This document shows positions 18,001 to 21,000 of a DNA stretch of 48,241 nucleotides, one piece after another. Source of the DNA: a virus (lineage: Duplodnaviria > Heunggongvirae > Uroviricota > Caudoviricetes); IMG/VR virus record IMGVR_UViG_2923307698_000003; one strand, given 5' to 3'. Position 1 is the stretch's first letter. Each line of letters starts with the position of its first letter. A program made the position numbers.

Positions 18001-21000
18001 CTGCATAATGCTTGATTTTTTTGTTTGCTGTTTATTAAAAACACTTCTGCATGGTGAATCCCCCTGTGCGGAGGGGCGATCAGCAACCAGGTATATGGGA
18101 TAATCGCGGATTCAGGTGCTGATACTGAATTCACCGGGAGGCACCCGGCACCATGCAAGAAAAAGAATGTGCATGCAAACATGCCCCTCTCCGGAGGGGC
18201 ATTTTTTATGGGTAAAAAATGCCCGAATGGGTTCGGGCAATAGCATGAGATACTGATATTGTTGTGTTGTTATCGTGTGGATTTTAACCAGGGTTTATCA
18301 GGCTGCGCAACTGCGTGGCCTTTTTTCATTTCTTGGGCTGTAGTCCCCGTGTGTCATTCAGGCTTCCGGACTACAGCCCACTCCATATCTGATTTAATAC
18401 ACTATCCCGGCCGGGAGGAATAATGACATTTAAACATTATGATGTTGTCAGGGCGGCGTCGCCGTCAGACCTTGCGGAAAAGCTGACACACAAACTGAAA
18501 GAGGGCTGGCAGCCGTTTGGTAGTCCGGTGGCCATAACCCCTTATACCCTGATGCAGGCGATTACAGCAGAAGGTGATGTGGTGGTCAGTGGTGCAACTG
18601 AGCCGGATTGGTACTACGTCATCGTACTGGCCGGGCAGTCCAATGCCATGGCTTACGGTGAAGGGCTTCCGCTGCCGGATTCATACGATGCTCCGGATCC
18701 GCGCATTAAACAGCTGGCGCGCCGCAGTACAGTGACGCCGGGTGGGGCTGCCTGCAGATATAACGATATTATTCCGGCCGACCATTGCCTGCATGATGTG
18801 CAGGATATGAGTACGCTGAATCATCCGAAGGCAGACCTGAGCAAAGGGCAGTACGGCTGTGTCGGCCAGGGGTTACATATTGCCAAAAAACTGCTCCCGT
18901 ATATCCCGAATAACGCGGGGATCCTGCTGGTACCATGCTGTCGTGGTGGTTCGGCATTCACCCAGGGCGCGGAGGGGGCATTCAGTGCGGACACGGGGGC
19001 CAGCCAGGATTCGGCGCGCTGGGGTGTGGGTAAACCGTTATATCAGGACCTGATTGCGCGCACCAAAGCTGCATTACAGAAGAACCCGAAAAATGTGTTG
19101 CTGGCCGTCTGCTGGATGCAGGGTGAGTTTGACATGAGCGCCGCCACCCACGCACAGCAACCTGCGCTGTTTACAGCCATGCTGAAGCAGTTTCGTGCTG
19201 ACCTCTCCGTGTTTAACGCGCAGTGCCATGGTGGCAGTGCTGCAGATGTGCCGTGGATTTGTGGTGACACGACGTATTACTGGAAAAATACATACGCTAC
19301 CCAGTACGACACCGTGTACGGCGGGTATAAAAACAGGGAGAGTGAGGGCGTTTATTTTGTGCCCTTCATGACAGACGGTAACGGCGTCAATACCGCCACT
19401 AACGCGCCGGCAGAAGATCCGGATATTCCGGCATCAGGATATTACGGTGCGGCATCGAGAACGAATGGAAACCAGGTATCATCAAACCGCCCGACACATT
19501 TCAGTTCATGGGCGCGCAGGAGCATTATTCCGGATCGTATGGCAACCGCTATTCTGAACGCAGCCGGGCGCACCTCAGCCTTCATCAGTGGTAAGGCACC
19601 GGAAATCAAACCCTCGCCCGGCGGCAACACGCCATCGGGTCCGTCTGCAGATACGTCCGTTCGCACAATCTCCCTGCTGCCGGCAGCCGGAGAGGCTGCT
19701 GCGCAGGGCTGGAGCATTAAGGATGGCGGAATTCAGTTGTCAGATGGTGTATTTAAGATCACCAAGCAGAGCAATAAAACCTGGTCCCTGACGCATCCGG
19801 TGGATGACGCAATTACCCTGCTGACACAGGGCGGCAGACTGACCTGTAAGTTCCGCCTGTCAGGCGCACTGACCAACAATCAGTTCGGGCTGGGGATTTA
19901 TCTGTATACGGATGCTCCCGTTCCTGATGGTGTGGCGATGACGGGTACCGGTAATCCGTTCCTGATGTCGTACTTCACTCAGACCACTGACGGATGTTAC
20001 AAAAAATGCAGCGTATGGCGTTGAGATAGAAAGTCTGGTGCTGGAGATAAATGCACCGGCAGCATAATAAAAAAAGAGCCAGCGACTGACCTGAAAGAAG
20101 ACGCTGGCTAAAAGGCCTTATATGTTTGTAGAGACTTATTTTTCACAGACAGCAATGATGCCTGTCAATATATTATCAATATGCGGATTGTTTCAGTTAC
20201 AGATGCTTTATTAAGGAAAAAAACAGCCAGCACTGACTTTCGGTGGGGAGGTGCTGGCTCAAAAGGATAGTTGGATTTCACATGATACTTATGCCTGGCG
20301 GTATATTTTCTGACAGACAGTGACGGATGTTGTCAAGATATAGTGTCATTTATAACCTGAACCAGGGGGGCCGGAATGTTATCTGGCATTTTTAGCAGAG
20401 CCTGAATGCCATAATCACGGCTCCCGGAGTTGGCCGTCAGTGGGTGACACTGGCGGCTTTTTGTTTTCCTTTACTTTCATTTTCTGTCGGCGGTGACGGA
20501 GACATACATCAGATGGAAAAAATCACAACAGGTGTGTCATACACCACGTCAGCGGTAGGGACGGGATACTGGTTACTGCAACTGCTGGACAAAGTCTCTC
20601 CGTCCCAGTGGGTGGCAATAGGTGTACTGGGGAGTCTGCTGTTTGGCCTGCTGACGTATCTGACTAACCTGTATTTCAAAATCAGAGAGGACCGGCGTAA
20701 GGCGGCGCGGGGAGAGTAAAGCGATGAAGAAAAAATACGAACTGGTTGTTAAAGGGATAAATAATTACCCGGATAAGATTACTGTTACTGTGGCACTGGA
20801 AATTGGTGGGTATCCGTCACTGTTGTTGCCAGATGTGGCGATTAGTCTTGACCGTACTGAAGGTGCCACGCTGGAGTTTTACGAAGCTGAGGCGAAAAAG
20901 CAGGCGAAGCAGTTTTTCATGGATGTTGCTGCCGGGTTATGTGAAGGGGATGGTCCGTTGCCGGAAAAGCGGCCCATCATTTTAGAGGCGCAGGATGTGT

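What the first reader, a model, noticed from the sequence alone, without database searches (positions are those of the whole stretch)
20060..20345. Tandem hairpin-terminated units between the esterase and holin genes: candidate prophage small RNAs
About 420 bp of non-coding DNA contains two diverged copies of one unit. Each has a GC-rich stem-loop (20077..20109 and 20226..20258) that reads on the minus strand as a hairpin followed by a 7-9 nt U-run, and each has a TTGACA hexamer 70-90 nt upstream on the minus strand. That is the shape of two roughly 75-90 nt sRNA genes transcribed against the late operon. Phage-encoded regulatory sRNAs have been reported in the late regions of pathogenic E. 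coli prophages, but I cannot confirm identity with any named one from sequence alone.
Basis: partly seen in the sequence, partly recalled or inferred. Interest (0 to 1): 0.55.

Follow-up and report, generated by a model that had tools for sequence, protein, structure and literature searches.

The report
PasA and its tandem sister sRNA

Summary
Two diverged copies of one unit lie between the truncated esterase gene and the holin gene. Each ends, on the minus strand, in a GC-rich hairpin followed by U7, and each has a TTGACA upstream.

The holin-proximal unit (window 20301..20217, minus) is the orthologue of PasA, an 85-nt Hfq-dependent sRNA validated in EPEC E2348/69. It is 87% identical overall, 43 of 44 in the terminator half with the seed unchanged, and the published Northern probe matches 24 of 25. 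Synteny and strand are the same.

The esterase-proximal unit (about 20133..20066, minus) matches the sequence under the Hfq-crosslinking peaks EcOnc51 and EcOnc52 of EHEC Sakai. That assignment depends on recalibrating the published coordinates. In EPEC its terminator ends the minor 236-nt PasA read-through form. Its stem and presumed seed are of the PasC type.

Neither RNA is in Rfam 15. Each unit occurs in about 12% of complete E. coli genomes, median three copies.

Two points appear undescribed. The PasA locus is a diverged tandem pair, whereas a 2026 preprint says pasA copies do not arise by tandem duplication. PasC looks like a hybrid of the two units. Whether the esterase-proximal unit has its own promoter is unproven.

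The parts
20217..20301 (-). Unit 2 RNA, the orthologue of PasA: 85 nt, a variant with a diverged 5' half, probably the class the 2026 preprint calls PasA-2.
   Evidence: Colinear with E2348/69 PasA (NC_011601.1 743499..743415) in alignments A2 and A3. Identity is 74/85 overall and 43/44 in the 3' part. The Northern probe GCCAGCACTGACTTTCGGTGGAGAG matches + strand 20226-20250 with one mismatch.
20225..20259 (-). PasA terminator hairpin (AGCCAGCAC / GUGCUGGCU, 17-nt loop). The 5' arm plus the first loop bases, GCCAGCACCU, is the published PasA seed.
   Evidence: Seed and target motif from PMC8550237 Fig. S5 and Table S7.
20217..20223 (-). U7 tract that ends PasA; the expected Hfq-binding 3' tail.
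   Evidence: The PasA 3' end maps here.
20331..20336 (-). TTGACA, a -35-like hexamer. The published PasA 5' end lies 30 nt after it.
   Evidence: Promoter function is inferred only; the -10 is weak.
20313..20320 (-). CTGTCTGT motif, 10 nt after TTGACA and shared by both units.
20066..20133 (-). Unit 1 RNA, about 65-68 nt. It corresponds to the Hfq-CRAC peaks EcOnc51/EcOnc52 and forms the 3' part of the 236-nt PasA read-through form.
   Evidence: The EcOnc52 peak (Sakai 1181998-1182075, minus) covers this sequence from 1 nt before the predicted +1 to 12 nt past the U-run. EcOnc51 maps to the same unit in Sp12 after coordinate calibration. The E2348/69 minor form ends at 743264, which is this terminator.
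20077..20109 (-). Unit 1 terminator hairpin (AGCCAGCG / CGCUGGCU, 17-nt loop UCUUCUUUCAGGUCAGU). The stem is the same as in PasC.
20069..20075 (-). U7 tract that ends unit 1.
20163..20168 (-). TTGACA upstream of unit 1, followed by CTGTCTGT at 20152-20145.
   Evidence: It is kept in 96 of 97 IMG/VR copies found with a terminator-only pattern.
20035..20045 (+). CTGGTGCTGGA, a copy of the PasA target motif at the 3' end of the esterase transcript.
   Evidence: The same site in the EPEC esterase mRNAs E2348C_0688 and E2348C_1246 is listed among PasA RIL-seq target motifs. Position in the window.
18423..20024 (+). SASA-family (NanS-p type) esterase gene, truncated here to 533 aa. This is the upstream flank.
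20513..20719 (+). Class II holin gene. This is the downstream flank.

Best explanation
The region carries two paralogous Hfq-binding small RNAs of the PasA/PasC family. Both are read from the minus strand, antisense to the phage late operon.

- **Unit 2** (20301..20217) is PasA.
- **Unit 1** (about 20133..20066) is the RNA seen as Hfq peaks EcOnc51/52.

Each RNA has a variable, unstructured 5' part followed by a Rho-independent terminator: an 8-9 bp GC-rich stem, a 17-nt loop and U7. The U-tail and hairpin are the expected Hfq-binding site. The base-pairing seed lies in the 5' arm of the terminator and the start of the loop. It is GCCAGCACCU in PasA and GCCAGCGUCU in unit 1, which is nearly the PasC seed region inferred in the preprint, GCCAGCGUCC. 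The RNAs act in trans on host and virulence mRNAs.

Part of PasA transcription reads through its own terminator and stops at unit 1's terminator, giving the 236-nt form. Unit 1 probably also has its own start about 30 nt after its TTGACA.

**Shown in orthologous loci by published experiments:** strand, size, Hfq dependence and RIL-seq partners of PasA; Hfq crosslinking on unit 1; termination at both hairpins.

**Inferred:** expression in this particular host, the promoters, unit 1's independent start and its seed, and any effect on the late transcript.
For: - **Identity of unit 2.** The window is colinear with the E2348/69 PasA locus, phage 434 and Sakai Sp12. Identity to PasA is 74/85, the seed is unchanged, and the probe matches 24/25 on the + strand, so the RNA is on the minus strand.
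- **PasA as a working sRNA.** Published data show an 85-nt major and a 236-nt minor form, Hfq-dependent stability and 41 RIL-seq interactions.
- **Identity of unit 1.** The 236-nt form ends at unit 1's U-run. The Hfq-CRAC peaks EcOnc52 and EcOnc51 fall on unit 1 with the same boundaries in Sp4 and Sp12. This follows calibration of the Sakai v1-to-v2 offset as 0 at Sp4 and about 137 at Sp12.
- **Unit 1 behaves like an sRNA in EPEC.** Its 3' end (743267-743294) forms RIL-seq chimeras, for example with escD.
- **Structure.** Only the terminator helix is conserved. It shows a G-C to A-U compensatory switch between the PasA type and the unit 1/PasC type, and a further C-G to U-A variant.
- **Paralogy.** Alignment score z = 11.
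- **Retention of unit 1 on its own.** Sakai Sp4 keeps only unit 1 with its TTGACA after an IS629 insertion. In IMG/VR, 96 of 97 unit 1 copies keep TTGACA-N10-CTGTCTGT. Four independent rearrangement junctions lie 10-23 nt upstream of TTGACA; one lies inside the RNA.
Against: - No expression data exist for this window's own host.
- The -10 hexamers are poor, and the consensus scan does not call either promoter.
- The 2026 preprint says PasA's 5' end arises by cleavage of a longer transcript.
- Unit 1 copies in Sakai are identical, so CRAC reads multi-map. The Sp4 peak therefore does not prove expression from Sp4.
- The EPEC authors treated unit 1's signal as part of PasA. It has far fewer interactions than PasA, 5 against 41.
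- A seed inside a terminator stem is unusual, as the preprint itself notes.
Confidence: 0.85

Rival explanations
1. Only unit 2 is a gene. Unit 1 is a back-up terminator and the 3' extension of PasA read-through transcripts. Its Hfq signal comes from the 236-nt form or from a processed 3' fragment of it.
For: - The EPEC study lists 743264 as the minor 3' end of PasA and merges the unit 1 entry into PasA.
- Unit 1 has 5 interactions against 41 for PasA.
- Its -10 is weak.
- CRAC reads multi-map between identical copies.
Against: - Unit 1 keeps the same TTGACA-N10-CTGTCTGT arrangement as PasA.
- The CRAC peak's 5' edge lies 1-2 nt from the start predicted by homology.
- Unit 1 persists intact, with TTGACA, where unit 2 has been removed by four or five independent rearrangements.
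Confidence: 0.3
2. The units work mainly in cis. As antisense RNAs, or as convergent terminators, they act on the late transcript at the esterase-holin junction. They could lower leaky holin or esterase expression in lysogens, or shield the late operon from antisense transcription.
For: - The position is fixed between esterase and holin in many prophages and phages.
- Both RNAs are fully complementary to the late mRNA.
- PasA chimeras with the 3' end of the neighbouring esterase mRNA are on record.
Against: - Most recorded PasA partners are trans targets that share a short motif.
- No data link these RNAs to lysis timing.
- The hairpins carry no U-run on the + strand, so they do not terminate late transcription.
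Confidence: 0.12
3. The hairpins are + strand structures of the late mRNA, such as stability or processing elements, with no minus-strand product.
For: Both hairpins fold equally well in the + strand RNA: -23.7 and -16.0 kcal/mol.
Against: - The U-runs follow the hairpins only on the minus strand.
- The published probe has the + strand sequence, so it detects minus-strand RNA.
- The RIL-seq and CRAC coordinates lie on the strand antisense to the late genes.
Confidence: 0.03

Closest known systems
PasA (pathogenicity-associated sRNA A), EPEC E2348/69; Pearl Mizrahi et al. 2021 (PMC8550237); Zhu, Shabalina and Storz 2026 preprint
   Same: Unit 2 shares the locus (esterase, pasA, class II holin), the strand, the 85-nt extent, the terminator and the seed GCCAGCACCU. 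Identity is 87%.
   Different: The first 40 nt or so differ at 10 positions, which fits the class described as sharing the 3' end but diverging at the 5' end (PasA-2). The name cannot be checked because the published variant sequences exist only as figures.
EcOnc51 / EcOnc52, orphan Hfq-binding sites predicted to be sRNAs in EHEC Sakai; Tree et al. 2014 (PMC4104026)
   Same: Unit 1 shows no differences from the Sakai Sp4 and Sp12 sequence under these peaks in alignment A3, and matches O157:H7 genomes at 100%. Orientation and position after the esterase stop are the same.
   Different: These RNAs were never confirmed by Northern blot and never given a function. The EPEC paper calls them homologues of PasA, but here they map to the neighbouring paralogue, not to PasA itself. 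This rests on my coordinate calibration.
PasC, EPEC E2348/69 prophage PP5
   Same: Unit 1 has the same terminator stem (AGCCAGCG / CGCUGGCU), nearly the same seed-equivalent region, the same 3' flank and the same position directly after the esterase stop.
   Different: The 5' part of PasC resembles PasA (81%), not unit 1 (49%), and the loop differs. PasC is a single unit that looks like a hybrid of unit 2's 5' part and a unit 1-type terminator.
AgvB / AsxR anti-sRNAs and HnrS (other sRNAs of the same prophage late regions)
   Same: They are short, Hfq-bound and terminator-ended, and they sit at fixed positions in lambdoid late regions. AgvB is present 1.8 kb away in this window.
   Different: There is no sequence relation. 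AgvB and AsxR lie upstream of the esterase. HnrS lies downstream of Rz in Sp9, Sp10 and Sp12 and is absent from this window.
Tandem duplicated sRNAs such as OmrA/OmrB and PrrF1/PrrF2 (from the literature, as cited in the 2026 preprint)
   Same: Two diverged copies lie head to tail. They share 3' ends and differ at the 5' end, and a read-through product is possible.
   Different: Here the conserved part includes the seed in the terminator arm, and the pair sits on a mobile prophage. The preprint explicitly contrasts PasA with these examples.

Membership tests
PasA | Sequence homology to E2348/69 PasA (NC_011601.1 743499..743415) | tested here: met
   Unit 2 is 74/85 identical overall and 43/44 in the terminator half. 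The Northern probe matches 24/25.
PasA | Synteny: between the sialic-acid esterase and the holin-lysozyme genes, on the opposite strand | tested here: met
PasA | [quoted passage not shown] | tested here: met
   9-bp stem plus U7.
PasA | Conserved seed GCCAGCACCU, complementary to the target motif CUGNUGCUGG | tested here: met
   The seed is unchanged in the window. The single 3'-half difference lies further into the loop.
PasA | Hfq-dependent accumulation of an RNA of about 85 nt | not testable with these tools
   Published for E2348/69 only.
EcOnc51/52 | Sequence under the Hfq-CRAC peaks of Sakai Sp12 and Sp4 | tested here: met
   Unit 1 shows no differences from the Sakai sequence in alignment A3. 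Peaks were mapped after calibrating the coordinate offset.
PasC | Sequence homology over the whole 78-79-nt RNA | tested here: not met
   Unit 1 against PasC is 61% overall, 49% in the 5' part and 73% in the 3' part. Unit 1 is PasC-like only in its terminator and seed module.
PasC | Terminator stem AGCCAGCG / CGCUGGCU directly after the esterase stop codon | tested here: met
AgvB/AsxR anti-sRNA (Rfam RF02702, RF02703) | Match to the covariance model, that is, the conserved 3' region of about 42 nt | tested here: not met
   Rfam gives no hit in 19950-20560 even at E = 10. AgvB itself is found at 18214-18275.
HnrS (EcOnc10-12) | 66-nt sequence with CCCAAUCAGUACAUU (anti-mazF) and CUUCU (anti-hha RBS), downstream of Rz | tested here: not met
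   The HnrS core is absent from the window on both strands.

The most novel reading that the evidence does not exclude
Unit 1 is a separately transcribed fourth member of the PasA/PasC family with a PasC-like seed. On this reading the esterase-holin gap is a tandem, recombining sRNA cassette. Its 5' modules (PasA, PasA-2, unit 1) and its seed/terminator modules (PasA type, unit 1 type, PasC type) are reshuffled by exchange between the two repeats. PasC would be one such hybrid. The pair might also act in cis on the late transcript. This would revise the published statement that pasA copies do not arise by tandem duplication.
Probability: 0.4. Interest if true: 0.4.

Novelty: already known. Interest (0 to 1): 0.27.

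Why it matters
These RNAs tie prophage carriage to host and virulence gene control in EHEC and EPEC. PasA ranks among the most connected accessory-genome sRNAs in the EPEC Hfq interactome. For genome annotation, the useful point is that Rfam has no model for either RNA and the RefSeq records inspected annotate neither, although each is present in about one complete E. coli genome in eight, often in several copies. For the field, the small addition is that the PasA locus holds a second, paralogous unit that carries the EHEC Hfq peaks, and that PasC can be read as a hybrid of the two. That affects how copy number, variants and targets of this family are counted.

Tried and rejected
- **Rfam 15.** I searched at gathering threshold and at E up to 10. 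There was no family for either unit, only chance snoRNA-type hits.
- **HnrS.** I tested whether the units are HnrS (EcOnc10-12). They are not: HnrS lies downstream of Rz in Sp9, Sp10 and Sp12, has a different sequence, and is absent from the window.
- **Tree 2014 coordinates.** I first read them at face value on NC_002695.2, which put EcOnc51 on PasA. Calibration with AgvB, AsxR, EcOnc03, HnrS and two Northern probes showed an offset of 0 at Sp4 and about 126-148 (best estimate 137) from 1.27 Mb onward. That moves EcOnc51 onto unit 1.
- **Species-representative genomes.** A scan with a terminator-shaped pattern returned only unrelated terminators from many phyla.
- **Full-text search for sequence strings.** Searching for the two terminators found only chance primer matches. 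Searching for 'EcOnc51' and 'EcOnc52' found no paper text.
- **dRNA-seq and Term-seq tables.** The Sakai tables that could settle the 5' ends are not held for PMC7547250.
- **A sigma-E type promoter.** I considered one around the shared CTGTCTGT/TCAGA motif. By inspection, the spacing to any GGAACTT-like element does not fit.
- **Another promoter-like site.** The consensus scan calls CTGAAA-18-TATATT (20196-20167, minus) just upstream of unit 1's TTGACA. I did not pursue it, because IS629 removes its -35 in Sakai Sp4.
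Full report
**What is in the sequence**

The window is the late region of an EHEC/EPEC-type lambdoid prophage.
- Rfam finds two tRNAs (17018-17247), STnc100 (18020-18213, +), AgvB (18214-18275, -), a sok-like RNA and DicF.
- A SASA-family esterase ORF runs 18423-20024. A class II holin gene starts at 20513, followed by endolysin and Rz genes.

Between esterase and holin there are two hairpins.
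- Hairpin 1 has arms at 20077-20084 and 20102-20109.
- Hairpin 2 has arms at 20225-20233 and 20251-20259.
- On the + strand each is preceded by A7, which is U7 after the hairpin on the minus strand.

TTGACA lies on the minus strand at 20168-20163 and at 20336-20331. A pattern that describes both terminators occurs twice in the window, both here and both on the minus strand, against none in 100 shuffles. The two units align at 74% mean column identity, with an alignment score z = 11 against shuffles.

**Identity of the holin-proximal unit (unit 2)**

The 488-nt gap matches 39 phage records, including H-19B, YYZ-2008, 22 Stx1a-converting phages and phage 434. The phage 434 record annotates two minus-strand terminators at these places, plus a + strand terminator before the holin. 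No ncRNA is annotated in the RefSeq records inspected, and Rfam has no match even at E = 10.

The literature gave the name. Pearl Mizrahi et al. 2021 described PasA in EPEC E2348/69. It lies on the minus strand between the esterase E2348C_0688 and the holin E2348C_0689, at 743499..743415 (85 nt, the major form). A minor 236-nt form ends at 743264.
- Their Northern probe equals window + strand 20226-20250 with one mismatch. The RNA is therefore on the minus strand.
- Alignment of the window with that locus is colinear. It places PasA at window 20301..20217.
- Identity is 74/85. It is 43/44 in the terminator half, and the published seed GCCAGCACCU is unchanged.
- PasA is Hfq-dependent on Northern blots and has 41 RIL-seq interactions.

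A 2026 preprint by Zhu, Shabalina and Storz describes the esterase-PasA-holin arrangement and names YYZ-2008 as a representative PasA phage.

**Identity of the esterase-proximal unit (unit 1)**

The 236-nt minor form of PasA ends exactly at unit 1's U-run. Unit 1's hairpin therefore terminates minus-strand RNA in vivo.

The EPEC paper also lists a second entry, 'pasA.E2348C_0688.IGR'. It has five interactions, and its chimeras map to 743267-743294, which is unit 1's terminator. The same paper notes EHEC homologues EcOnc51 and EcOnc52 from Tree et al. 2014.

Those coordinates refer to the older Sakai record, so I calibrated them against the current one.
- At Sp4 (1.18 Mb) the offset is 0, judged from the EcOnc08/21 probe.
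- From 1.27 Mb onward it is about 126-148, best estimate 137. This comes from AsxR, EcOnc03, AgvB1, three HnrS copies and the EcOnc27 probe.

With these offsets both peaks fall on unit 1, not on PasA. Each runs from 1-2 nt before the start predicted by homology to 9-12 nt past the U-run. In Sp4 an IS629 element has replaced unit 2, and only unit 1 with its TTGACA remains. Unit 1 copies in Sakai are identical, so the reads multi-map. The Sp4 peak alone does not prove expression from that copy.

**Relation to PasC and family structure**

The PasC locus of E2348/69 holds a single unit. It has the PasA-type upstream region and a PasA-like 5' part (81%). These are joined to a terminator with unit 1's stem and unit 1's 3' flank, directly after the esterase stop. 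PasC thus reads as a hybrid of the two units. Alternatively, the tandem pair arose by duplication of a PasC-like ancestor.

In a sample of 120 IMG/VR loci there were 74 canonical tandem pairs (167-169 nt start to start), one pair split by a 1.4-kb insertion, 39 single long units (28 of PasC type) and 7 single short units. One short unit carried a PasC-type loop.

Across 21 distinct variants only the terminator helix is conserved. It shows a G-C to A-U switch between the PasA type and the unit 1/PasC type. A further variant has AGCCAGUAC / GUACUGGCU.

The preprint states that pasA copies are never closer than 22 kb and are not products of tandem duplication. The diverged neighbour 150 nt away was evidently not counted.

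**Distribution**

Unit 1 and unit 2 queries match 676 and 686 of 5426 complete E. coli genomes. The median is three places per genome and the maximum is eight.

**How it most likely works**

By homology with the published data, both RNAs are Hfq-binding trans-acting sRNAs. The terminator hairpin and U-tail bind Hfq. The seed sits in the 5' arm of the terminator and pairs with CUGNUGCUGG-like sites. One such site lies at the 3' end of the neighbouring esterase mRNA; in this window it is at 20035-20045. Unit 1's equivalent region (GCCAGCGUCU) is one base from that of PasC (GCCAGCGUCC). It may therefore share PasC-type partners such as the rne leader. That last step is inference.

**Promoters**

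The published PasA 5' end lies 30 nt after TTGACA, which suits a sigma-70 promoter with 17-nt spacing. The -10 hexamers (TCAGAA, TGAAAA) are poor, however, and the consensus scan calls neither site. The preprint says the PasA 5' end arises by cleavage of a longer transcript. The promoters are therefore plausible but not shown.

For unit 1's independence the evidence is indirect.
- The TTGACA-N10-CTGTCTGT layout is shared with PasA.
- The CRAC peak edge falls at the predicted start.
- 96 of 97 IMG/VR copies found by a terminator-only pattern keep the motif.
- Four independent rearrangement junctions lie 10-23 nt upstream of TTGACA, against one inside the RNA.

**Rivals**

- Unit 1 may be only the distal terminator of PasA read-through (about 0.3).
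- A mainly cis-acting role on the late transcript is possible but untested (about 0.12).
- A purely + strand structure is contradicted by the orientation of the U-runs and by the strand of the published probe and reads (about 0.03).

**Verdict**

The RNAs are already described: PasA is validated, and unit 1 is catalogued as EcOnc51/52. Three minor new points emerge: the tandem paralogy, the mapping of the EHEC Hfq peaks to unit 1, and the hybrid nature of PasC. Interest is low to moderate.

Noticed in passing
window 18020-18275: A convergent sRNA pair sits upstream of the esterase: STnc100 (18020-18213, +, 142.7 bits) and AgvB (18214-18275, -, 96.5 bits, matching the Rfam consensus at every position shown). 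This is the 'moron site' arrangement described by Tree et al. 2014. The EcOnc06 Northern probe also matches at 18091-18125.
   Followed up: partly
window 19985-20024 (esterase 3' end): The esterase ORF is 533 aa instead of 616. A deletion of about 210-227 bp between short direct repeats, C(A/G)CTGACGG, removes the C-terminal part and shifts the frame. As a result the ORF stops at 20024 rather than at the usual TAA at 20065-20067.
   Followed up: partly
window 20370-20387 and 20432-20458 (+ strand): Two terminator-like hairpins followed by T-runs lie on the + strand just upstream of the holin start. The second, GGCCGTCAGTGGGTGACACTGGCGGCT + TTTTTGTTTTC, is annotated as a terminator in the phage 434 record. 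A terminator inside the late operon ahead of the lysis genes would need Q-modified polymerase to pass.
   Followed up: no
window 22419-25305: A lambda-type packaging region follows Rz directly: cosN GGGCGGCGACCT at 22671-22682, a Nu1-like ORF at 22860-23405 (181 aa) and a gpA-sized ORF at 23380-25305 (641 aa). I recognised these from memory of the lambda left end. The sRNA HnrS occupies the gap after Rz in Sakai Sp9, Sp10 and Sp12 but is absent here.
   Followed up: partly
window 12317-12492 and 4912-4963: Rfam finds a sok antitoxin RNA (+, 118.5 bits), which implies a hok/sok-type toxin-antitoxin locus, and DicF (-, 75 bits) in the early region of the prophage.
   Followed up: no
Sakai loci L004, L008, L009, L010 (NC_002695.2): The coordinates in Table S2 of Tree et al. 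2014 refer to NC_002695.1. Against NC_002695.2 they are unshifted at 1.18 Mb but offset by about +137 from 1.27 Mb onward. Anyone overlaying those peaks on the current record will misplace them. Here the error would put EcOnc51 on PasA instead of on its neighbour.
   Followed up: yes
L211, L212, L230 (IMG/VR): More diverged unit 2 variants exist. One has terminator stem AGCCAGTAC / GTACTGGCT, a compensatory change. Another has an altered upstream motif, CTGTCTGCCAAAAAAT. Both still sit in tandem with a normal unit 1.
   Followed up: no
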